64,000 nt of DNA from a virus. The stretch lies in the UHGV virus genome UHGV-1962423; one strand, given 5' to 3'. The translations under genes were made by a program, and so were the position numbers. Shown piece after piece: positions 44,124 through 53,636 of the stretch; position 1 is the stretch's first letter, and each line of letters begins with the position of its first letter. The notes beneath the pieces are model-generated. The model searched no databases, had not been told where the DNA came from, and was given only the letters and a program-made list of their open reading frames with translations.

Positions 44124-44687
44124 GTGGCCACATCTTACGTACCTGATTTGAGTCTGACCTCAGCAGAGCTAGTGGTCGCTTTAATCAATCATGATAACGG
44201 GTTACAGCTTACGCTAAACGAAATCCGTATTAGCGGAACCGTAACAAACCCATCACCAACAACTTCGCGTCGTAACACCATCACCGAAATCAGTAAAATC
44301 AGAAAACCGGATGGTGCGTCTGTTGTGGTCTACTACGACAGACTTGACGCCGATGAGGTATTAACGTCTGAACCTATTTTGATTTCGTTAGACGGTACCG
44401 AAGCGAATATCCGTGACGTTCTGAGTGTTGTAAATGAACACTGCGGTACGAACTTACAGCCTGAAGACTTACGCGTTTCTGATATTACTTCAGGTAACGA
44501 TCCTATTGCCGTTAACGTTGCCGACGATTCACCTGCGTGGATGAATGCGTTTATGGTGACGTTATTTGATAAAACTGAGCGTGCGTTAGCGAACGAAGAA
44601 GATGAAATCTTCTGCATCGGTGACGATAGCGTTCTTACCTTTGAGGTTCCAGATGACGACTCAGCTGAAGAAAACCCGACTACATGA
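44124..44687 (+). CDS. small protein paired with downstream tail fibre, module A (187 aa)
   Basis: GTG start with GGAGGG RBS; clear paralog of 50418..50930 (PDLSLTS...V.L.NHD..LQL...NE, shared C-terminal CGIGDDSV.LTF); both sit directly upstream of a receptor-binding gene. Confidence 0.7.
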   Translation: MATSYVPDLSLTSAELVVALINHDNGLQLTLNEIRISGTVTNPSPTTSRRNTITEISKIRKPDGASVVVYYDRLDADEVLTSEPILISLDGTEANIRDVLSVVNEHCGTNLQPEDLRVSDITSGNDPIAVNVADDSPAWMNAFMVTLFDKTERALANEEDEIFCIGDDSVLTFEVPDDDSAEENPTT

Positions 44688-44892
44688 ACTTGATGATTTT
44701 TACCGGTAATGGAGGACAAAGCAAACTTTTATCAAGACTTAGCAAACCAAAATCATGAAAACGCGAAATTGAACATCGCTTTCACGTTAGAAGATGATGT
44801 ATTAAAACCAGGGCAATAGTAACCCGCTTATAAAAAATTGGGGGGTAAACTACTCTCCTGATCTTTTAGCTCCCGATAGAGAATTAAATATC

Positions 44893-47800
44893 ATGGCTAA
44901 AGCGGTAAAGAAAATTCGTTTACACGATTTACGTCCATACACCGGTGATATCGGTGAAGGCGTTTTACTTTTCTCCAAGGATGAGAAAGATTATAAGTTA
45001 CCAGTCCGTGAGGTTATTGCAGATATTGACACCGTACGTAATGCGGTGGCTGATGCACAAACAGCAGCAGCACAATCACAAGAAGCTGCAACTCAGGCTA
45101 CGCAAGCAAAAGTTTTAGCAGAAGCAGCAAAACAACAAACTGACACAGTTGCGGCAACGGTTGCACAACAAGCGCAAACCGTAACCGAAAAAGCAACAGA
45201 AGTCAGTACAAAACATACCGAAGTGTTAGCCGCGAAAACGGCGGTAGACGCTCAGGCTGTGTCCATTAATGAGAAAGCACAAGCGGTAGCGACAAGTGAG
45301 GCAAACGTCACACAAGCAGAAACTACCGTTACGAAGAAAGCAGAAACTGTTGCCACACAAGCCGGGCGGGTCGAACAGTCACTTACGGCAGTTAACGAAG
45401 CTGTTGCGTCGGTAGAGTCGTCGAAAGCTGCCGTAGAAGCTAAAGCAACACAAGTTACTTCAGACAAAGAAACCGCAGAGAATGCGGCAACTCGTTCTGA
45501 GGCAGCCGCTAAGCGTGCGGAAGAAATCGTTGCTCAAGGTACTGTTGATGCAACAACGACCAGTAAAGGTGTCGTTAAACTTAATAATACCTTAACCAGT
45601 GACTCTGTTACTGAAGCGGCTACACCGTCAACGGTTAAGCAGTTAAATGATGAATTGCAGTTAAAAGCAAACCGTCACAACCCAACTTTTACCGGTGTGG
45701 TAAAAGCACCGACTCCTGCTTCGGATTCTAACGACACGAGCGTCTCAACGACTGCATGGGTACGGCAAGCGATTGCTGAATTAGTGGACTCTTCACCCGA
45801 GACGTTAGATACGTTATCAGAAATTGCAGCCGCGTTAGGAAACGATCCTAACTTTGCGACAACGATAACGAACCAACTAGCGGGTAAACAGCCGTTAAGT
45901 CCGTTACTGACAGCGATTGCCGCAGTCACCACCGCTGCAAACAAACTCCCTTACTTTACCGGTAGTAATCAGGTAGGGTTAGCGGATTTCACCTCGACTG
46001 CTCGCGAATTATTAGCGAAAGGGTCGACGGCCGATATCATCAGCTTCCTGGGGTTGAAAACCACCGTTGATAAAGCTGCGGGCGCTATGCAACGTAGTTC
46101 TAACGGTGCCGATATTCCCGATAAAGCCACCTTCGCGAAGAACATCGGGTTGTCAGCAGAGACGTACCTGAAGTTTAATGGGGAGATGCCAGTAGATGCA
46201 GACATCAACACCTTCGGCCCGGTTGAAGCGTTTATGGGCGTTTGGTCTAAAGCCACGTCTACGAACGCAACAGTTGCAAAGAATTTTCCAGAAGAAAACG
46301 CAGTTGGTTGTTTAGAAGTTTTCAAAGCGGGTAACTACAGCGGAAGTCAACGTTTTACTGTACGTAACGGTAACATCTATACACGTCATCTTACTGCTGC
46401 ATGGAATGGGACAAACGGTCCTTGGTCAGAATGGCGTAATGTTGCTGGTTCCGCCAGAACGTTGAACGAACAAAATAATCTGAATGACTTGGGTGGTGAG
46501 GCCGCACTAGGTGTTTGGAGAAACAGTTCGAGTACATTAGCAACAACCGCGCTGAATTATCCTGAAGAAGGCTCTTTTGCCCAGGGCGTATTAGAAGTTC
46601 TCAAAGGTGGCAACTATAGTTACACACAACGCTACACTACCCGCAGAGGCAATGTATACGTTCGTTGTCTACAAGCCACGTGGGACGCTTCAAACCCGCA
46701 ATGGGAAGAATGGCGCTGTGTTGGTCATCAATCTGTCAGCACATATTTCGAAGGCGATCTCGACACGTTAACTTCGCCTAACCGTTATAGCATTACTGAT
46801 AAAGCGACAAACGTTCCTTTAATCGACGGTACTAAAATTATCGGTATCTTGGACGTCAGTCGTCGTTTTGATAACATTAGTGTCGAACAAAAATTCACCT
46901 CGTTTGGTTCTGGGAGCAAAACTACAGGGCGTATTTTCACACGTGTATTCTCCGGTCAATCAAACGGTAAATGGAGTGAGTGGCGAGAGGTTTTCACCTC
47001 GTATTCACTTCCGTTAGTTTTAGGTATCGGTGGGGTTGCAGCTAAGGTTGACCCGTTAGACTGGCAAACCTACGACTTCGTTCCTGGACAGATGTTAACG
47101 ACGCCGTTGAACACCATGAAAAACATTCCTGCAGGAATGGATTGGGGTACTATTGACGGTAACTTAGTTAACATCCTTGTAGGGCCGTCTGACGACACCG
47201 GTACTGGTCGGAGTATGCTGGTTTGGCGTAGCACAGTGTCTGTTGCTAACTATCGCTTCTTTGCGGTACGTATCGCTGGTGAGAAGGGTAGTCGTACGAT
47301 TACGCCGCGTCAGATGCCTGTGTTGAACGCAGCGCACACCTGGTCAGAGAAACAAACGTTCTCTAAAGGTTTAGCGGGTGAATTAACCGGTAATGCTTCT
47401 TCAGCAACGAAACTTCAAACAGCCCGTTTAATCGGCGGCGTAAGTTTCGACGGCACCAAGGACATTGCACTCCCTGGCGTTAACGCACAAGGTACGCAGA
47501 ACACCACTGGGAATGCGGCTACCGCAACCAAATTACAAACGGCTAGAAATATCAACGGTGTGAAATTCGATGGCTCTGGAGACATCAATATCAACACCTT
47601 AGTAGGTCGTGGACGTGTCACTGCTCTGGCTGGATCAAACAAAGGTACACCTGGTATCCAGATGTACGAGGTTTACAATAACGGTTATCCGACCGCGTAT
47701 GGTAATTTACTGCATTTAGGTGGTGCTACTGCCGTAGGTGAAGGTGAACTACTGATCGGTTGGTCTGGTACCAGTGGCGCACACGCACCTGTTTATATCC

Positions 47801-49209
47801 GTAGTCGTCGAGACACTACAGATGCGCCGTGGTCAGAATGGGCGCAAGTTTATACTGCACGAGACAGCATTCCGGGTGTCAACACCACAGGTAATCAGGA
47901 TACGACCGGAAACGCAGCTACCGCTACAAAACTTAAAACCACACGTAAAATAGGCGGGGTTAATTTTGACGGAACGGGTGATATTAACCTACCAGGTGTA
48001 AACCAGCAGGGCAACCAGAACACAACAGGTAACGCTGCGACAGCGACTAAACTCCAGACTGCCCGAAATATTGGTGGTGTGGCTTTCGATGGTACTAAAG
48101 ACATCAGTTTACCTGGGGTAAACCAAACAGGGAATCAGTCAACTACGGGGAACGCTGCTACTGCAACGAAGTTGCAGACAGCAAGAAGTATCAACAACGT
48201 ACCATTCGATGGTTCGAAAGATATTACTCTAACGCCAAGTAATATCGGTGCGGCTGCCTCCTCAATGACTTGGTTAAATACCGGGGATAATGGTGCAGCG
48301 CTTAGTACAGATTCTTTTATTACTTTGTTGCAAAATAACGGGGCTTTTAATTCCAGAACTTGGATAGCCCGATGCTCTTGGGCGTATGCTCAAAATGGCG
48401 TGATTCCAGATAGTGAAACAAAGTGCGGTACTATTCCACTTGCAGGCTCAGTTATTGAAGTTGTAAGTTTTGGGATGACCAACTACACCATTCGTATCAC
48501 AACCCCTACGACGACATCGGTTAGCGGAGCAAAAACCAACTCTGAGTTTATTTATTGCTATAATGGTAAAGATTATTCTCCAGGTTGGCGACGGCAGTAT
48601 AACACTGTTAATAAACCGTCTGCTAGTGACGTTGGCGCTCTACCAACTGGTGGCGGTACTGTCAGTGGCGATTTGACGGTTAATGGTAAACTGGTTACGA
48701 AAAATGCCGATTTTCGAATTGCTTACGGTAGTTACGGTTTCATTTTACGTAACGATGGCAATAGCACCTATTTCTTAGTAACAGCATCTGGTCAAGCTGC
48801 AACGGGTTCCTGGAATAACTTACGACCGATGTATTTTAGCAACTCTACCGGTCAAGTAACCTTCGGGCACAACGTTACTGGTAACGGGAACGGTTCGTTT
48901 AACGACGTACAGATTCGTTCTGACCGTCGTAACAAACGTAATCTGGTGAAACTGGATAATGCATTAGACCGTTTAGAACTCCTTACCGGGTATCTGTACG
49001 AAGTTCAACATCCTGACGATGGATGGAATACTTCGGTAGGCTTAATTGCCCAGGATGCATTAGTTGCGTTACCTGAATTGGTTACTGAAGACGATGACGC
49101 TATTTCTGGTGAAAAACGTTTACGTTTGAACTATAATGGTGTTATTGCGTTGTTGGTAGAGGGCATTAAAGACCTTCGTCGTGAGCTTAAGGAACTCAAG
49201 GGGAAATAA
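44893..49209 (+). CDS. long tail fibre protein with C-terminal intramolecular chaperone domain (1438 aa)
   Basis: N-terminal anchor shared with 50934 gene; Ala/Thr/Gln-rich coiled-coil; tandem TGNAATATKLQTAR.IGGV.FDGTKDI.LPGVN repeats like T4 gp12/gp34/gp37 fibre repeats; C-terminus SDRRNKRNLVKLDNALDRLELLTGYLYEV...GLIAQDALVALPELV matches the self-cleaving chaperone of endosialidase/L-shaped fibre proteins. Confidence 0.85.
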   Translation: MAKAVKKIRLHDLRPYTGDIGEGVLLFSKDEKDYKLPVREVIADIDTVRNAVADAQTAAAQSQEAATQATQAKVLAEAAKQQTDTVAATVAQQAQTVTEKATEVSTKHTEVLAAKTAVDAQAVSINEKAQAVATSEANVTQAETTVTKKAETVATQAGRVEQSLTAVNEAVASVESSKAAVEAKATQVTSDKETAENAATRSEAAAKRAEEIVAQGTVDATTTSKGVVKLNNTLTSDSVTEAATPSTVKQLNDELQLKANRHNPTFTGVVKAPTPASDSNDTSVSTTAWVRQAIAELVDSSPETLDTLSEIAAALGNDPNFATTITNQLAGKQPLSPLLTAIAAVTTAANKLPYFTGSNQVGLADFTSTARELLAKGSTADIISFLGLKTTVDKAAGAMQRSSNGADIPDKATFAKNIGLSAETYLKFNGEMPVDADINTFGPVEAFMGVWSKATSTNATVAKNFPEENAVGCLEVFKAGNYSGSQRFTVRNGNIYTRHLTAAWNGTNGPWSEWRNVAGSARTLNEQNNLNDLGGEAALGVWRNSSSTLATTALNYPEEGSFAQGVLEVLKGGNYSYTQRYTTRRGNVYVRCLQATWDASNPQWEEWRCVGHQSVSTYFEGDLDTLTSPNRYSITDKATNVPLIDGTKIIGILDVSRRFDNISVEQKFTSFGSGSKTTGRIFTRVFSGQSNGKWSEWREVFTSYSLPLVLGIGGVAAKVDPLDWQTYDFVPGQMLTTPLNTMKNIPAGMDWGTIDGNLVNILVGPSDDTGTGRSMLVWRSTVSVANYRFFAVRIAGEKGSRTITPRQMPVLNAAHTWSEKQTFSKGLAGELTGNASSATKLQTARLIGGVSFDGTKDIALPGVNAQGTQNTTGNAATATKLQTARNINGVKFDGSGDININTLVGRGRVTALAGSNKGTPGIQMYEVYNNGYPTAYGNLLHLGGATAVGEGELLIGWSGTSGAHAPVYIRSRRDTTDAPWSEWAQVYTARDSIPGVNTTGNQDTTGNAATATKLKTTRKIGGVNFDGTGDINLPGVNQQGNQNTTGNAATATKLQTARNIGGVAFDGTKDISLPGVNQTGNQSTTGNAATATKLQTARSINNVPFDGSKDITLTPSNIGAAASSMTWLNTGDNGAALSTDSFITLLQNNGAFNSRTWIARCSWAYAQNGVIPDSETKCGTIPLAGSVIEVVSFGMTNYTIRITTPTTTSVSGAKTNSEFIYCYNGKDYSPGWRRQYNTVNKPSASDVGALPTGGGTVSGDLTVNGKLVTKNADFRIAYGSYGFILRNDGNSTYFLVTASGQAATGSWNNLRPMYFSNSTGQVTFGHNVTGNGNGSFNDVQIRSDRRNKRNLVKLDNALDRLELLTGYLYEVQHPDDGWNTSVGLIAQDALVALPELVTEDDDAISGEKRLRLNYNGVIALLVEGIKDLRRELKELKGK
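47385..48240 (+). repeat. tandem in-frame coding repeats of the fibre motif
   Basis: At least five copies of the ~25-50 aa unit; nucleotide copies differ at synonymous positions. Confidence 0.7.
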
Positions 49210-49212
49210 AGG

Positions 49213-49755
49213 ATGGCAGTTGTTGAAGTTCCAGGTTATATCGGTTCTTCTGCAAAGGAAGTTACTGGCGAAGAGATGATGTCTGAAGCGATGACCGAAC
49301 TCGGCGTTGTCGTACCAGGGATGATGTCTGAAATGGCAGGTCTGTCAATGGGTTGCTATGTAACGTTTGAGGAGTGGACTACCGTTGAAGATGGCCTTGA
49401 TGTTCGATGGATCGGTGCGTCTACTTCCGAGTGGACAGACGGCTACGGCAAACCGGTCGTTAAAGGAAAAATATCCGGGGCGAAGATGTTTGGTTTGAAT
49501 GTCGAAGCGGAGCTGATCGGAATGCACTATAAAAAGCATCCGCGATTCCCTTGGTCAGTCGAACTAAAATGTCGCTGCGAAAAAGGTAGCAATTTCAGTT
49601 ATACGTTAGACGGTGTAAGCGGTTCTGTATCGAGTGATGGTACCGGTACAACCGGAATGCAAATTCGTACATTCAAATTTAACAATTTCAGTGCAGCATT
49701 TAAGGAAAAGATAGAGCAAGTTGGTGTCAAGATGCCAACATCACGTAAATATTAA
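49213..49755 (+). CDS. hypothetical protein downstream of tail fibre, paralog 1 (180 aa)
   Basis: MAVVEVPGYIGSSAKEVTGEEMMSE...MGC; paralogous N-terminus to 49812 gene (MAV....G..GSSAK.ETGE..MS.A...LG...P.MMS.M.G.SMGC). Confidence 0.7.
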   Translation: MAVVEVPGYIGSSAKEVTGEEMMSEAMTELGVVVPGMMSEMAGLSMGCYVTFEEWTTVEDGLDVRWIGASTSEWTDGYGKPVVKGKISGAKMFGLNVEAELIGMHYKKHPRFPWSVELKCRCEKGSNFSYTLDGVSGSVSSDGTGTTGMQIRTFKFNNFSAAFKEKIEQVGVKMPTSRKY

Positions 49756-49799
49756 AAGAGTAGCGTAGGGGTGACCTCCCCCCTACGCGAATCTTAACA

Positions 49800-49809
49800 G
49801 GGGGGGGGG
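49800..49809. repeat. G10 homopolymer tract immediately upstream of start codon 49812
   Basis: Ten consecutive G directly read in sequence, 2 nt before the ATG; preceded by hairpin gcgtagggg...cccctacgc at 49763-49788. Confidence 0.9.
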
Positions 49810-49811
49810 TA

Positions 49812-50315
49812 ATGGCGGTTAACTCGGGTTGGGTCGGTTCTTCGGCTAAGAGCGAAACGGGCGAACAGTGGATGAGCGCTGCGGGTGCCAAATTGGGATT
49901 GGGTAAACCTTTTATGATGAGTCAAATGGTGGGACGATCTATGGGCTGTAAAATTTCAACTGCTGCATATAGTGATTCTTTAGGTAAGAAATGGGGTGCT
50001 GTGGGATCAAGTTGGCCATTAACTCAGAAAAATCAGGGAACCATTCAAAACGCGGGTAACTGCGGGGTGGGAACTTTAGTAGGTATAGAGTTACAATTAA
50101 CGACGGTAGTTGCCAACGCAACGCCTACTCTAGCGGTCTATTTACAAGGCGGCAGGGCCTCTAACATCACTGCAAATCTAGGCGGTAACACTTGTGCGCT
50201 GACCTATCAGCAGGTTATTAATGGCCAACATTATTACTGGACCAATAACATTAGTGCCGCGTTCCAAAACGTGATGAAATCGACCGGTACACTAAGAGAT
50301 TTCAAAATTAGTTAA
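49812..50315 (+). CDS. hypothetical protein downstream of tail fibre, paralog 2 (167 aa)
   Basis: Paralog of 49213 gene; start codon directly after the G10 tract. Confidence 0.65.
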   Translation: MAVNSGWVGSSAKSETGEQWMSAAGAKLGLGKPFMMSQMVGRSMGCKISTAAYSDSLGKKWGAVGSSWPLTQKNQGTIQNAGNCGVGTLVGIELQLTTVVANATPTLAVYLQGGRASNITANLGGNTCALTYQQVINGQHYYWTNNISAAFQNVMKSTGTLRDFKIS

Positions 50316-50352
50316 TTATTTTTCAAACGAATGTGTTTGAAAACGTAATCGA

Positions 50353-50362
50353 GGGGGGGGGG
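50353..50362. repeat. second G10 homopolymer tract in intergenic region
   Basis: Ten consecutive G, 55 nt upstream of GTG 50418. Confidence 0.9.
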
Positions 50363-50417
50363 TGAAGTGTTTTTAGCCAACATTTTATGTCTCCCCAACC
50401 GTAGGAGGTAAATATAC

Positions 50418-50930
50418 GTGGAACAATTCACGCCAGATTTGTCGTTAACTTCACTTAACATGGTTATTTCACTGGTTAACCATGACCTCCAACTTGACTT
50501 GCAAGAGAATGAGGTCGAAGTCAGTGACGTAAAGACCAGTGACGAAATGGAACGTGACACCACTGCTGTTGTAAAGATAAAACGTTCTGGTAACAGAACG
50601 TTACAAATCTACTACAACCGTTTAACTGCAGAGCGGTGGTTAAACCGACAACCTGTACTTGTAAAAGTAACAGGCGAAGGGTTTAATGCGCACGATCTAA
50701 TCGAATCCATCAACACCGTTTGTGGTGCTAACTTACAAACCGACGATTTAACCGACCAGTCGTTCACGGTGGGTAAAGACGCGGTAATATTTAGCATCGC
50801 TCCGAGTTCCCTCGGCTACAAAGGTCAGTTCTCCGTGGTGGTTTTCGGTCCAGATGAAACACCGTGTGGTATCGGTGACGATTCTGTCGTGCTAACGTTT
50901 GACAATAAAATCTTAACCTTTGGAGAGTAA
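50418..50930 (+). CDS. small protein paired with downstream receptor-binding protein, module B (170 aa)
   Basis: GTG start with AGGAGG RBS; paralog of 44124..44687. Confidence 0.7.
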   Translation: MEQFTPDLSLTSLNMVISLVNHDLQLDLQENEVEVSDVKTSDEMERDTTAVVKIKRSGNRTLQIYYNRLTAERWLNRQPVLVKVTGEGFNAHDLIESINTVCGANLQTDDLTDQSFTVGKDAVIFSIAPSSLGYKGQFSVVVFGPDETPCGIGDDSVVLTFDNKILTFGE

Positions 50931-50933
50931 TAG

Positions 50934-53066
50934 ATGAGTCAGCCAATTGGAAAGAAGCGTATTCATGAGCTGGAAACATTTGAAGGTGAATTAGCAGGAG
51001 TCGTTCTGCTGATGTCCAAAGACGACAAAGAATATAAACTTGACGCATCTCGTTTACAAAACGATAAGCTGTATCTAGCTTGCGGTACACCTTTTCCTAA
51101 ACTAGTATTCCAAAACGATAAAACACTTTACAATATTAATCCGTACAGTGACTACGACACTTATGAAGTTTCTGCAAATAAAGGTCGGGTATCTAAAGTT
51201 ACTCGTGCCACATTTAGCGTGATGGCTGGGTCTTTATCGGTTGGCGAGAAAATACAACTTACAGTTACGCGCAATGGCGTACCATTTCAATTTGAAGTTA
51301 CCGTATCGGGACCGCGTATCACTACTCCCACTTGGACACTTCCAGTTAATGGCGGTAAATTGAGCGTAACGCCAACCTTTGAAGTAACTGACTATCAAGC
51401 CTATCCATATACCAACACCGGTAATCAACAGACCGCTGCCAGTTGGGAAATTTCCACTAGTGAAGATTTCTCAACTACAGTTTTCCAATCACTGAACGAC
51501 ACCGTCAACAAAACAACCATCAGTATCCCAGAAGGTAAGTTAGAACCAGGTCAAACTTACTACGCACGTGTTCGCTTCCATAACGCAGTAACCGAAAGTG
51601 ATTGGTCCGTTGTTCAATTCTCAGTCGGCGAAGCATTTATTCAGCGTCCTGCACTGATCGAACCCACCGTAGACATGGTGTTAAGCGCATCGAATATTAC
51701 ACTTAAAACTGATGTTTTTAAATGGGTCGGTGACGAACCTGCGGAGACCCACGTATCGACTGACTGGCAGGTTACTTACGGTAGCAACGATTTTGACGAA
51801 ATGAATAATCTCGTTAACCAATTAGAAGATGCGATTAACCTGACGTCGCTTAAATTACCGTCTGATCGGGTTTACGTTAATAACAGTTATCGTGCACGCG
51901 TGCGTTTTCGTGGTGAGAGAAGCGTCAGTGATTGGTCTGAACCTTTAACGTTCCGTGTAAGTCGCGGGAACGTACCAACAAGTGAATTCCAGTCAATTTC
52001 TGCTTCTGGATTTACAGGTAATTCAATCGGTGCTGAGTTGGCATGTACTGACGACGGTTTGCTGTTTGCTGCTACTGGCGTTGCACAGAAAGCGAAATTC
52101 TTACATATCTTTAAGAAAGACTTCCCGTCTTACAACAAAGTTGCCTCTTTAACAGCTGCTACTGAGGTTGACGCAGACAGAGATGGTCGCTGTCCGGTCA
52201 GTATGTCAGCCGACGGTAAGATTATTGTTGTCGGTGTTAGCGCATCTAAAGCTAACGAAGACCACGGCGAAGTTATCGTTTACCGTAACCCAGATAACGC
52301 TGAGTGGAGTACAATCAACGGAATAACTTTAGCGGGATTACCCACAGAAGGGTTCCATGGCCTTGCAGTAAAACTGTCAAAAGACGGCAATCGTTTGATT
52401 GTGGGTAACGGTACGAAAGTGCTGTCTATGTATTCCAATACCGATCAATTTGCTACACGTACGGCTGTGTCGCCGACACTAAGTGCCGAAGACGCCACTT
52501 GTGGTGGTATTGGTAGCATTGCAATGTCTGAAGACGGTAACGGTTTAGTGCTTGGCGAAACTAACGGAACGAAATTCCACGTACTGGCTTGGGAATCGGA
52601 TAGTTGGGTGACTAAGGCATCTATTACACCAAAAGACTTGACTGAGAAAGCAACGATTAAAGTCGCTGCTTCTTCTGACTTGTCTACGATTCTTGTTTCT
52701 GTAGTTGAGACACACAAATACTACGTTTACAAGAAAACCGGTGATAGTTGGTCTCTGTTCCAAACCTTGGATTATACCGAACTGGATTACTCCATTACTT
52801 CTACCCGTTACCCGACGGGAGACATTAATGTTGCGCCTTCCGGAAGCTGGTTAATTTTCGGTATGGTGGGTTCGTTGGGTTCTATTTTCGAATTTCGTAA
52901 TAGTACCTACCAACGACAAAATAGCATTTACGGCAGTAGTCTTAGCGATCCTGAGAATTACCACTTCTATACGTCACAAGCCATCAGTGCACAAAACGAT
53001 TTGTTCGTCGGTGCTGATGTTAAAGAAAGTGCTTCGTACTTCCCACAAATCAAAGTTTACATGTAA
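50934..53066 (+). CDS. second receptor-binding protein (tail fibre/spike) with shared N-terminal anchor (710 aa)
   Basis: N-terminus KKRIHELETFEGELAGVVLLMSKDDKEYKL parallels KKIRLHDLRPYTGDIGEGVLLFSKDEKDYKL of the 1438-aa fibre; central Ig/FN3-like stretches; C-terminal repeated ..DG..IVVG.. units suggestive of a beta-propeller (inference). Confidence 0.6.
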   Translation: MSQPIGKKRIHELETFEGELAGVVLLMSKDDKEYKLDASRLQNDKLYLACGTPFPKLVFQNDKTLYNINPYSDYDTYEVSANKGRVSKVTRATFSVMAGSLSVGEKIQLTVTRNGVPFQFEVTVSGPRITTPTWTLPVNGGKLSVTPTFEVTDYQAYPYTNTGNQQTAASWEISTSEDFSTTVFQSLNDTVNKTTISIPEGKLEPGQTYYARVRFHNAVTESDWSVVQFSVGEAFIQRPALIEPTVDMVLSASNITLKTDVFKWVGDEPAETHVSTDWQVTYGSNDFDEMNNLVNQLEDAINLTSLKLPSDRVYVNNSYRARVRFRGERSVSDWSEPLTFRVSRGNVPTSEFQSISASGFTGNSIGAELACTDDGLLFAATGVAQKAKFLHIFKKDFPSYNKVASLTAATEVDADRDGRCPVSMSADGKIIVVGVSASKANEDHGEVIVYRNPDNAEWSTINGITLAGLPTEGFHGLAVKLSKDGNRLIVGNGTKVLSMYSNTDQFATRTAVSPTLSAEDATCGGIGSIAMSEDGNGLVLGETNGTKFHVLAWESDSWVTKASITPKDLTEKATIKVAASSDLSTILVSVVETHKYYVYKKTGDSWSLFQTLDYTELDYSITSTRYPTGDINVAPSGSWLIFGMVGSLGSIFEFRNSTYQRQNSIYGSSLSDPENYHFYTSQAISAQNDLFVGADVKESASYFPQIKVYM

Positions 53067-53075
53067 GGAAACGCG

Positions 53076-53636
53076 ATGAAATATGCTTATTTAAAAGACG
53101 GTAATGTGATCGACTGGAATGTTACCGAAGACATGATTGCTTTGCGTGGCCACACTGTAGATATTTATACGCCTGTAGTAGAATCTGCTAAACCGGTTGT
53201 TAACCCTGATTGTTATATCGTGTTCGAAACAACACCAAAACTGGTAAAAGGCAAGCTGGTTCAACAGTGGGTGACTGAAGTGCTGCCTAAAGAAACGGTA
53301 GTACGTAACCAGAAGGCACGTTTAGCGGAAATTCGTTATGCGAAAGAAACTGCCGGGATTACGTTTAAAGACCAAACTATTCCTACGACACGTGATGTAC
53401 GTTATCAGTTAATTCAGTCTAAACACGTTGATTCTACGCAACCTATTAACTGGAAGCTAGGCGATACGTGGCTAAGTCTTACTCAGGAAGACATTGATGC
53501 GCTGCTGGTTGCAATCGCAACTTATGTTGAGAAATGCTACGCGGCAGAACGCACAGTCTCCGAGAAAATCACTAAGGTGAAAGCACCTGAAAAACTGGAT
53601 GTAGAAACCTTATTTAACGACGCTTTCGCAGCGTAA
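53076..53636 (+). CDS. hypothetical protein, possible fibre assembly or accessory factor (186 aa)
   Basis: Immediately downstream of the second receptor-binding gene; role inferred from position only. Confidence 0.6.
   Translation: MKYAYLKDGNVIDWNVTEDMIALRGHTVDIYTPVVESAKPVVNPDCYIVFETTPKLVKGKLVQQWVTEVLPKETVVRNQKARLAEIRYAKETAGITFKDQTIPTTRDVRYQLIQSKHVDSTQPINWKLGDTWLSLTQEDIDALLVAIATYVEKCYAAERTVSEKITKVKAPEKLDVETLFNDAFAA

What the first reader, a model, noticed from the sequence alone, without database searches (positions are those of the whole stretch)
49213..50315. Duplicated small genes directly downstream of the long fibre
The 180-aa and 167-aa products share a distinctive N-terminus (MAV...G..GSSAK.ETGE..MS.A...LG...P.MMS.M.G.SMGC) and then diverge. 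Their position between the two receptor-binding modules, each preceded by a G10 tract or hairpin, suggests fibre-associated accessory proteins that duplicated and diverged, possibly tip adhesins or assembly factors.
Basis: partly seen in the sequence, partly recalled or inferred. Interest (0 to 1): 0.45.

Follow-up and report, generated by a model that had tools for sequence, protein, structure and literature searches.

The report
Two tandem gp38-type fibre-tip adhesins
The two small genes after the long tail fibre of this SPN3US-like jumbo phage are related gp38-type receptor-binding "tip adhesins", and since the first is absent or replaced by a different adhesin in close relatives, the phage probably puts either of two tips on one fibre.

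Summary
ORF A (49213-49755, 180 aa) and ORF B (49812-50315, 167 aa) are homologous: 59% identical over the first 46 residues and 18% after that, with the same predicted fold.

Both belong to the known gp38 adhesin family. They hit Pfam Gp38_N above its cut-off and phrog_1121 "tail fiber adhesin". They match the full-length profile that includes RB43 gp38, and B matches S16 gp38 structurally.

The upstream 1438-aa fibre ends in an S16-gp37-like tip and a self-cleaving chaperone domain. This is the arrangement in which a separately encoded gp38 caps the fibre.

The pair is not a recent in-place duplication. B is constant in about 15 related jumbo-phage contigs. The slot before it holds A, a variant of A with a different C-domain, a glycine-rich T2-type gp38, or nothing. 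The closest relative lacks exactly the 599 bp of cassette A.

Both genes are under purifying selection. Only one compatible fibre was found.

Most likely, A and B compete for the same fibre tip, one monomer per trimer. This would give virions with mixed tips and two receptor specificities, but it is inferred and not shown.

The family is known. The dual-adhesin slot in a phiKZ-like jumbo phage appears undescribed. Interest is moderate.

The parts
44893..49209 (+). Long tail fibre (1438 aa). The two adhesins presumably dock onto its tip.
   Evidence: Pfam hits are Phage_fiber_2, Gp34_trimer and Peptidase_S74. The C-terminal 160 aa match S16 gp37 (6F45_A), E = 2.5e-14, including the motif ...NDVQIRS|DRRNKRN. 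It is the only tip+chaperone match in the window.
48838..49209 (+). Fibre tip motif (GNGNGSFNDVQIRS) followed by the intramolecular chaperone domain, with inferred autocleavage between S and D.
   Evidence: The alignment to S16 gp37 is. The motif GNG[SN]FNDV[QY]IRS-D[RKA]R.K is shared by all related fibres and by Stx-phage fibres, although the preceding domains differ. Cleavage is inferred from the family and was not tested.
49213..49755 (+). Adhesin A (180 aa): a short gp38-type tip adhesin occupying the variable slot 1.
   Evidence: Family hits: Gp38_N 43 bits against a cut-off of 25; phrog_1121 E = 4.8e-20 over residues 1-168. The AlphaFold2 model has pLDDT 83. The best BFVD matches are gp38-like proteins of T4-like Proteus phages. 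dN/dS is 0.12-0.23. The gene is absent from the closest relative, L013.
49213..49350 (+). N-terminal attachment domain of A (three short helices).
   Evidence: Residues 1-42 match Gp38_N. The model has helices at 10-18, 23-29 and 38-41. Y9, M22 and M37 sit at the positions of the three S16 tryptophans (PMC6851490).
49763..49788 (+). GC-rich hairpin between A and B (GCGTAGGGG...CCCCTACGC).
   Evidence: The fold is (stem of 9 pairs; z-score only -1.0). A comparable hairpin with a C-run of 9-10 is present in L005-L008. Its function is unknown.
49800..49809 (+). G10 tract at the ribosome-binding-site position of B, 2 nt before the ATG.
   Evidence: The same position is G6 in L005 and L006, and AGGAGGGG in L008.
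49812..50315 (+). Adhesin B (167 aa): a short gp38-type tip adhesin, the constant slot 2.
50313..50420 (+). Conserved structured intergenic leader containing the second G10 tract (50353-50362), upstream of the second receptor-binding module.
   Evidence: The fold has z = -4.24. It is conserved in 9 loci, with one compensatory pair change, a G-run of 9-12 and a T-run of 4-7. There is no Rfam match.
44124..44687 (+). DUF7941 virion protein heading receptor-binding module 1.
   Evidence: Pfam DUF7941 and phrog_2935. It is the homologue of the SPN3US protein with locus tag ACQ60_gp144.
50418..53066 (+). Receptor-binding module 2: a second DUF7941 protein (50418-50930) and a 710-aa fibre (50934-53066). 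The fibre has no chaperone domain and no gp38 docking tip.
   Evidence: The fibre N-terminus is 44% identical to that of the long fibre over 36 aa. The two DUF7941 copies are 33% identical (E = 1e-31).

Best explanation
A and B are two paralogous gp38-type tail-fibre tip adhesins, that is, receptor-recognising proteins, of the short RB43-like form.

Each has two parts:
- an N-terminal three-helix attachment domain of about 45 residues;
- a beta-sandwich of about 120 residues that should carry the receptor-binding loops.

The proposed steps are as follows.
1. The 1438-aa long fibre trimerises with the help of its own C-terminal chaperone domain.
2. That domain cuts itself off at ...VQIRS|DRRNK, exposing a threefold-symmetric base.
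3. One adhesin monomer caps the base by inserting one hydrophobic residue from the top of each helix into the three equivalent pockets, as in the phage S16 gp37-gp38 complex.

Only one such fibre is encoded, and one monomer fills all three pockets. A and B should therefore be alternative caps. A burst would then produce fibres, and probably single virions, carrying a mixture of A tips and B tips, giving two receptor specificities.

B is the constant adhesin of this phage lineage. The position in front of it is a swappable cassette slot. Exchange uses the conserved 5' ends of the adhesin genes and the boundary between the N- and C-domains as recombination points.

Shown here: family membership, fold, tandem conservation, slot variability, purifying selection and a single compatible fibre. 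Inferred: autocleavage, docking, mutually exclusive occupancy, presence of both proteins in virions, and dual receptor use.
For: Family membership:
- Pfam Gp38_N is above its cut-off for both proteins (A 43 bits, B 73.6 bits, cut-off 25).
- phrog_1121 'tail fiber adhesin' matches almost full length.
- RB43 gp38 aligns full length to the family profile containing A and B (hhalign probability 100%, E = 8.5e-40). Host-range mutations of RB43 and RB42 map to residue Q100 of that C-domain (PMC3157838).
- The best viral structure matches for A are gp38-like proteins.

Fibre:
- Its C-terminus matches the S16 gp37 tip plus chaperone domain.
- Literature states that chaperone-bearing gp37 fibres lack their own receptor-binding domain and rely on gp38.
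- One gp38 monomer binds one gp37 trimer through three apex residues (PMC6851490).
- A and B have hydrophobic residues at exactly these three positions, each just before a predicted helix.

One fibre, two adhesins:
- There is a single tip+chaperone match in the window.
- There is also a single match in a complete relative of 222 kb.

Both genes are functional:
- dN/dS is 0.04-0.23.
- The tandem pair is conserved in L005, L006 and L008.

Slot variability:
- The slot holds A, a variant of A with a different C-domain, a T2-type gp38, or nothing.
- A 599-bp indel is bounded by the repeat ATGGC[A/G]GTT.
- N- and C-domain identities are discordant: 77%/96% against L005 and 90%/42% against L008.
Against: - There is no direct evidence that either protein is in the virion or binds the fibre. 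No complex could be modelled with the tools available.
- The N-domains of A and B are only 59% identical, so they might not use the same site with equal affinity.
- A hairpin and a separate ribosome-binding site before B leave the expression ratio unknown.
- The receptors are unknown.
Confidence: 0.72

Rival explanations
1. Only the constant protein B is the virion adhesin. A, or whatever occupies slot 1, is a non-structural helper that assists folding or loading of the tip and is then released, as T4 gp38 and Mu/P2 tail-fibre assembly proteins are.
For: - Many database records call gp38 homologues 'distal long tail fiber assembly catalyst'.
- A lacks the three tryptophan plug residues.
- A is translationally coupled to the fibre gene with a 3-nt gap.
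- Some relatives do without any slot-1 gene.
Against: - The fibre has its own intramolecular chaperone.
- A has the same domain layout and fold order as B and as RB43 gp38, a proven host-range determinant.
- In relatives the same slot holds T2-type gp38 with glycine-rich motifs (Pfam GP38). That class is an established virion adhesin.
- The 'assembly catalyst' label is carried over from the unrelated T4 gp38 (PMC6851490).
Confidence: 0.12
2. A and B sit together on the same fibre tip as a composite or stacked tip, for example one docking on the fibre and the other on its partner. Each fibre would then always present both binding surfaces.
For: - The N-domains of slot-1 and slot-2 proteins form two distinct sequence variants that recur across relatives: 'VPG.IGSSAK..AM..LGV.VPG.MS' against 'SGWVGSSAK..AAG.KLGLG.PFMMS'. 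This could reflect different docking sites.
- B is always present, whatever is in slot 1.
Against: - In the S16 structure one monomer occupies all three symmetric pockets.
- Relatives with B alone (L009-L011, L013) show that B needs no partner.
- In the Ounavirinae phage LPML1 the two tandem adhesins have nearly identical N-domains. This fits competition for one site.
Confidence: 0.1
3. One of the two is a redundant leftover of recombination that is on its way to being lost, so the pair has no functional meaning.
For: The A cassette is missing from the closest relative, and the slot is empty in several others.
Against: - dN/dS is 0.12 for A between the window and L005, at dS = 0.44. It is at most 0.20 for B.
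- Reading frames are intact in all loci.
- The tandem arrangement recurs with at least four different slot-1 genes in about 10 independent contigs.
Confidence: 0.04

Closest known systems
RB43/RB42 gp38 (short gp38 adhesin of Pseudotevenvirus; Trojet et al. 2011, PMC3157838)
   Same: - About 170 aa.
- The first 50 or so residues are the T6/T2-type attachment domain.
- A C-terminal domain of about 120 aa without glycine-rich motifs.
- It aligns full length to the A/B family profile.
- It is encoded directly after a gp37-like fibre gene.
   Different: - RB43 has one such gene, in a T4-like phage. Here there are two in tandem, in a phiKZ-like jumbo phage.
- C-domain sequence identity is low: only the N-terminal 40-46 residues align by BLASTP.
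- RB43 has W/W/W at the plug positions. B has W/W/M and A has Y/M/M.
Salmonella phage S16 gp37-gp38 tip complex (PDB 6F45; Dunne et al. 2018)
   Same: - The fibre tip plus chaperone domain is homologous.
- The attachment domain of B is homologous by sequence and structure.
- This complex is the source of the 3:1 capping model.
   Different: - S16 gp38 is 249 aa, with a central beta-helix and a polyglycine sandwich bearing hypervariable loops.
- A and B have a compact beta-sandwich instead.
- A gave no significant structural match to 6F45_D.
'Tail fibre adhesin' of Oslovirus Stx2 phages (P13374 ORF66, phi191, Ss-VASD, 75/02 Stx) and of ~108-kb Shigella/E. coli records deposited as plasmids
   Same: - 61-63% identical to B over the full length.
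- 85-92% DNA identity over the first 145-165 bp.
- It follows a fibre with the same GNGSFNDVQIRS|DKRNKRN tip and chaperone domain.
   Different: - It is a single adhesin gene, in a short-tailed temperate phage or a ~108-kb plasmid-like record.
- The fibre shaft is collagen-like or otherwise unrelated.
T2/T6-type gp38 (Pfam GP38, PF05268; glycine-rich motifs and hypervariable segments)
   Same: - It has the same N-terminal attachment domain.
- It occupies slot 1 in sister jumbo-phage genomes (L012, L014-L016, L046, L047).
   Different: Neither A nor B has the glycine-rich specificity domain. Pfam GP38 was not hit.
Phages that carry two receptor-binding proteins at once (T5-like DT57C LtfA/LtfB, PMC4728585; K1-5/SP6 dual tailspikes, from my own knowledge)
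   Same: The idea is the same: host range is widened by carrying two receptor-binding proteins encoded side by side.
   Different: In those phages the two proteins sit at separate attachment sites, on branched fibres or adaptors. Here two monomeric caps would compete for one fibre tip.
PeSL promoter/stem-loop motifs that mediate module shuffling in T4-like phages (Comeau et al. 2014, PMC4122927)
   Same: Short conserved intergenic elements with a hairpin flank the exchangeable cassettes in the receptor-binding locus.
   Different: - The sequences differ: here they are G/C homopolymer runs and GC hairpins.
- The A indel is bounded by the first 9 nt of the coding sequence, not by the hairpin.
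- No promoter function was tested.

Membership tests
gp38 tail-fibre adhesin family (Pfam Gp38_N, PF21721) | The N-terminal attachment domain of about 40 aa matches the family model above the curated cut-off. | tested here: met
   A scores 43 bits and B 73.6 bits, against a cut-off of 25, over profile positions 1-40 of 40.
gp38 tail-fibre adhesin family (Pfam Gp38_N, PF21721) | Three conserved tryptophans at the apex of the three attachment-domain helices plug the gp37 pockets (S16; PMC6851490). | tested here: inconclusive
   B has W7/W20/M35. A has Y9/M22/M37. Both sets are hydrophobic and lie just before the predicted helices. In the family alignment, W occupies 36, 34 and 23 of 46 sequences at the three positions. 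The third position is therefore often not W, and A is atypical at all three.
gp38 tail-fibre adhesin family (Pfam Gp38_N, PF21721) | The gene lies directly downstream of a gp37-like fibre gene that ends in a docking tip plus a self-cleaving chaperone domain. | tested here: met
   The fibre stop codon is 3 nt before the start of A. The fibre has Peptidase_S74 and matches the S16 gp37 tip at E = 2.5e-14.
gp38 tail-fibre adhesin family (Pfam Gp38_N, PF21721) | The protein is part of the virion at the fibre tip and determines host range. | not testable with these tools
   This needs virion proteomics, adsorption assays or genetics.
Short RB43-type gp38 (phrog_1121) | Full-length homology of about 160-180 aa, including the C-terminal domain that lacks glycine-rich motifs. 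| tested here: met
   phrog_1121 matches A at E = 4.8e-20 (residues 1-168) and B at E = 1e-45 (residues 1-161). RB43 gp38 against the A/B profile gives E = 8.5e-40 over 166 columns.
T2/T6/S16-type gp38 (Pfam GP38, PF05268; polyglycine sandwich) | A C-terminal specificity domain of glycine-rich motifs separated by hypervariable segments. | tested here: not met
   Neither A nor B hits PF05268. Their models are beta-sandwiches. The slot-1 genes of L012 and L047 do have this domain.
Tail-fibre assembly chaperones (T4 gp38, Mu U / P2 G type) | Sequence or profile similarity to a chaperone family. | tested here: not met
   No such family was found in Pfam, PHROGs or NCBIfam for A or B.

The most novel reading that the evidence does not exclude
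This phiKZ-like jumbo-phage lineage runs a 'one fibre, two caps' system. A constant adhesin (B) and a swappable adhesin in a dedicated slot share one docking site on the long fibre, so each burst yields virions with mixed tips and two receptor specificities. New specificities would be acquired by cassette exchange at the conserved gene starts and at the N/C-domain boundary. The length-variable G-tracts at the cassette borders (6-12 G among relatives) might in addition tune the ratio of the two adhesins, or the expression of whole modules, within a population.
Probability: 0.35. Interest if true: 0.65.

Novelty: new variant of a known kind. Interest (0 to 1): 0.45.

Why it matters
Gp38-type adhesins are among the best-understood and most engineerable determinants of phage host range. 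Almost all work on them concerns T-even phages with a single gp38.

- **Spread of the module.** The fibre-tip, chaperone and adhesin module has moved into a nucleus-forming type of jumbo phage. The same B-type adhesin module is also found in Stx phages and ~108-kb plasmid-like records, and a tandem gp38-type pair in a FelixO1-like phage.
- **A natural dual-adhesin design.** Nature repeatedly places two adhesin genes behind one fibre. If both are loaded, this would be a natural way of widening host range. It could be copied when engineering therapeutic phages, and host-range prediction would have to allow for it.
- **Annotation.** The B-type genes are labelled 'hypothetical protein' in the RefSeq records of the related genomes. 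Those genomes are themselves deposited as plasmids.

Tried and rejected
- **Recent local duplication: rejected.**
  - The C-domains are 18% identical.
  - A and B are not sister groups in a neighbour-joining tree of the family. The tree is weak at this divergence.
  - Relatives show cassette presence, absence and replacement.
- **Close DNA relatives among deposited phages: none found.**
  - Megablast found nothing beyond about 150 bp of the 5' end of B, which matches Stx phages.
  - Relatives came instead from the protein-cluster look-ups, IMG/VR, and records deposited as plasmids.
- **NCBIfam: no model** for either protein.
- **Rfam: no family** in 49100-50500.
- **Sigma-70 promoter scan: not above chance** in the locus. 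Terminator-like sites were somewhat enriched, but the A-B hairpin scores only on the minus strand.
- **G10 tracts as borders of a B cassette: considered and not supported.**
  - The tract before B is G6 or AGGAGGGG in relatives, and it sits at the ribosome-binding site.
  - The tract after B belongs to a conserved leader of the next module.
- **Literature: no paper on tandem gp38 adhesins found**. The library is incomplete, so this is not proof of absence.

Full report
**1. The observation**

ORF A (49213-49755, 180 aa) and ORF B (49812-50315, 167 aa) lie on the + strand directly after a 1438-aa ORF (44893-49209).
- BLASTP of A against B gives 30% identity over about 175 residues, E = 3e-14.
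- In a family alignment, the first 46 residues are 59% identical and the remainder 18%.
- The similarity is not confined to the N-terminus. The BLAST alignment reaches the C-terminal 'NN(F/I)SAAF' segment.
- The two AlphaFold2 models (A pLDDT 83, B pLDDT 85) have the same order of three short helices, a beta-sandwich, one helix and a final strand.

- A starts 3 nt after the fibre's stop codon, with no tract or hairpin before it.
- A GC hairpin (49763-49788) and a G10 run (49800-49809) precede B.
- The second G10 (50353-50362) follows B.
- These are the only G>=8 runs in the 64 kb (0.48 expected).

**2. What the proteins are**

Both proteins match the gp38 adhesin family.
- Both hit Pfam Gp38_N ('Phage tail fibre adhesin Gp38 N-terminal domain') above the curated cut-off: A 43 bits, B 73.6 bits, cut-off 25.
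- Both match phrog_1121 'tail fiber adhesin' over nearly their full length: A E = 4.8e-20, B E = 1e-45.

RB43 gp38 is the experimentally characterised anchor.
- It is a 174-aa protein that aligns full length to the profile containing A and B (hhalign probability 100%, E = 8.5e-40).
- Trojet et al. (PMC3157838) showed that it has a T6-like attachment domain of about 50 aa plus an unrelated C-terminal specificity domain of about 120 aa.
- They also showed that host-range mutants of RB42 and RB43 all change residue Q100 in that domain.

A and B are therefore members of the short, RB43-type branch of the gp38 adhesin family. They are not the glycine-rich T2/S16 type, because Pfam GP38 was not hit.

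**3. The partner fibre**

- The 1438-aa protein has Phage_fiber_2, the T4 gp34 trimerisation domain and a C-terminal Peptidase_S74 intramolecular chaperone.
- Its last 160 residues align to the S16 gp37 fragment of 6F45 (E = 2.5e-14). The alignment includes '...NDVQIRS-DRRNKRN' against S16 '...RDLNVSS-DRRIKKD'.
- Published work describes this arrangement. Gp37 fibres that carry the chaperone domain cleave it off and have no receptor-binding domain of their own, and gp38 caps them.
- In S16, one gp38 monomer sits on one gp37 trimer. Three conserved tryptophans at the tops of the three attachment-domain helices fill three symmetry-related pockets (PMC6851490).
- The equivalent residues are W7/W20/M35 in B and Y9/M22/M37 in A. 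Each lies immediately before a predicted helix.
- Across 46 family members, W occupies these columns in 36, 34 and 23 sequences. B is therefore typical. A keeps hydrophobic residues but none of the tryptophans.

**4. Genomic context**

- The window comes from a phiKZ-like jumbo phage related to SPN3US and phiEaH2. The major capsid protein is 78-80% identical, and PHROG hits include a 'polymerase' family (phrog_2943) and virion structural proteins.
- No close DNA relative exists in the phage collection.
- In SPN3US, Asesino and EC001 the homologous locus has a DUF7941 protein, a small fibre protein and a ~1000-aa tail protein, with no annotated gp38-like gene.
- Here two modules are present. 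Each starts with a DUF7941 protein (33% identical to each other) followed by a fibre. The two fibres share an N-terminal segment of about 36 aa (44% identical).
- Only the first fibre has the docking tip and chaperone domain.

**5. Relatives show a constant adhesin and a variable slot**

Protein look-ups and collection scans recovered about 15 contigs of the same phage lineage.
- Several are 220-226 kb long.
- Two are complete circular records deposited as plasmids of E. coli 98232 and Enterobacter ludwigii.
- All have a B-type gene (167-170 aa) immediately before the second DUF7941 gene.

The position between the fibre and B holds different things in different contigs.

| Slot-1 content | Loci |
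|---|---|
| A (180 aa) | window, L005, L006, L007 |
| Variant of A (175 aa), C-domain only 42% identical to A | L008 |
| T2-type gp38 with glycine-rich motifs (212-263 aa) | L012, L014, L015, L016, L046, L047 |
| Nothing | L009-L011, L013 |

Evidence for cassette exchange:
- L013 is the closest relative, at 91% DNA identity over the fibre's 3' end. It lacks exactly the 599 bp from 49213 to 49811.
- That indel is bounded by ATGGC[A/G]GTT, the first nine bases of both adhesin genes.
- Domain identities are discordant. A is 77% (N) and 96% (C) identical to the L005 copy, but 90% (N) and 42% (C) identical to the L008 copy.
- This shows exchange at the domain boundary, as described for gp38 in T-even phages (PMC3157838).

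Evidence that both genes are functional, and that there is only one partner fibre:
- dN/dS is 0.12-0.23 for A and 0.04-0.20 for B.
- A complete relative has a single tip+chaperone match, as does the window.

**6. Distribution elsewhere**

- B is 61-63% identical to the single 'tail fibre adhesin' of Oslovirus Stx2 phages. Related genes sit in ~108-kb Shigella and E. coli records deposited as plasmids.
- All of these fibres share the tip motif GNG[SN]FNDV[QY]IRS-D..K, although the preceding domains differ. The preceding domain is T4 gp34-like in the window, S16 gp37-like in L005 and L012, and collagen-like in P13374.
- In the 50,697-record phage collection, the N-domain of B matches 929 records at 940 places. 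At most 11 records therefore carry a second copy.
- One of these is the Ounavirinae record LPML1. There a fibre gene is followed by a 255-aa T2-type adhesin and a 160-aa short-type adhesin with nearly identical N-domains.
- The tandem layout is thus rare but recurrent. I found no paper that describes it, though the library is incomplete.

**7. Mechanism and rivals**

The best-supported reading is that A and B are alternative caps for the same processed fibre tip, giving mixed tips and two receptor specificities (confidence about 0.7).
- Family membership and the genomic pattern are shown.
- Cleavage, docking, mutual exclusion and virion incorporation are inferred from S16, T2 and RB43.

The rivals are weaker.
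- **A as a non-structural helper.** The fibre has its own chaperone, and the same slot holds classical adhesins in sister genomes.
- **A composite tip with both proteins bound.** Relatives manage with B alone, and one monomer fills all three pockets in S16.
- **A decaying leftover.** Purifying selection and the recurrence of the layout argue against this.

**8. The G-tracts and hairpins**

- On the + strand only three runs of G>=6 exist in the 64 kb, and all are intergenic in this locus.

| Position | Length | Location |
|---|---|---|
| 44840-44845 | G6 | 47 nt before the fibre ATG |
| 49800-49809 | G10 | ribosome-binding site of B |
| 50353-50362 | G10 | 55 nt before the second module |

- Their lengths differ among relatives. 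The tract before B is G6 or AGGAGGGG. The tract after B is G9-G12. The tract before the fibre is G9-G10.
- The tract after B lies in a conserved leader of about 100 nt that folds unusually well (z = -4.24). One helix shows a compensatory change, and there is no Rfam match.
- These elements belong to the module borders rather than to the adhesin genes.
- Whether they act as expression signals, recombination points comparable to the PeSL motifs of T4-like phages (PMC4122927), or hypermutable switches was not tested.

**9. Verdict**

The proteins are new members of a known family. The organisation is a variant that seems not to have been described: two adhesin genes for one fibre, with a constant and a swappable position, in a phiKZ-like jumbo phage. 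Interest is moderate at 0.45.

Noticed in passing
window 44840-44845, 49800-49809, 50353-50362; L005 3509-3518 and 9137-9148; L009 2815-2823 and 8539-8549; L012 2417-2426 and 8548-8558: The only three runs of G>=6 on the + strand of the 64-kb window are all intergenic in the receptor-binding locus. The corresponding tracts vary between 6 and 12 G among close relatives. Possible explanations are hypermutable homopolymers, expression signals or recombination borders. Assembly error cannot be excluded.
   Followed up: partly
window 50313-50420: A conserved intergenic leader of about 100 nt lies between adhesin B and the second DUF7941 gene. It folds with z = -4.24. It has a first hairpin with a compensatory A-U to G-C change among relatives, and a second hairpin that pairs the G-tract with a downstream CUCCCC. 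It has no Rfam match.
   Followed up: partly
L046 (NZ_CP173450.1, E. coli 98232, 221.9 kb circular) and L047 (NZ_CP134650.1, Enterobacter ludwigii, 222.4 kb circular); also L006 and L011 from Shigella and Salmonella isolate assemblies: Complete genomes of this jumbo-phage lineage are deposited as 'plasmids' of clinical or animal isolates, and fragments occur in isolate assemblies. This suggests a carrier state or pseudolysogeny, or else phage contamination of cultures. In the RefSeq records the B-type adhesin is labelled 'hypothetical protein'.
   Followed up: partly
window 50418-53636 compared with L005 9204-11840, L009 8607-9742 and L008 1381-2760: The second receptor-binding module is also swapped among relatives. 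In the window it is a 710-aa fibre with Ig-like and beta-propeller-like hits plus a DUF4376 protein. In L005 and L006 it is a 706-aa SASA/DUF6645 protein, in L009-L013 a 206-aa protein, and in L008 a 273-aa protein plus DUF4376.
   Followed up: no
L049 (OK283618.1 'Listeria phage LPML1') 101-5483: An 87-kb Ounavirinae (FelixO1-like) record has a fibre gene followed by a 255-aa glycine-rich gp38 and a 160-aa short gp38 in tandem, both annotated as hypothetical. The Listeria host label looks doubtful for this subfamily.
   Followed up: partly
window 44893-49209: The long fibre is a mosaic. It contains a segment matching phage Mu tail fibre protein S/S' (8JU3, E = 2e-30), then the T4 gp34 trimerisation domain, then the S16 gp37-type tip and chaperone domain. 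Compared with SPN3US, it replaces the small fibre protein and the ~1000-aa tail protein. Some relatives (L009, L012, L046, L047) keep that tail protein as well.
   Followed up: partly
window 49213-49350 compared with L005 8001-8140: At the three 'plug' positions of the attachment domain, adhesin A has Y/M/M in the window and L008 but M/W/M in L005. Slot-1 T2-type adhesins have W/W/W and B has W/W/M. The docking residues of slot-1 proteins vary more than those of B.
   Followed up: partly
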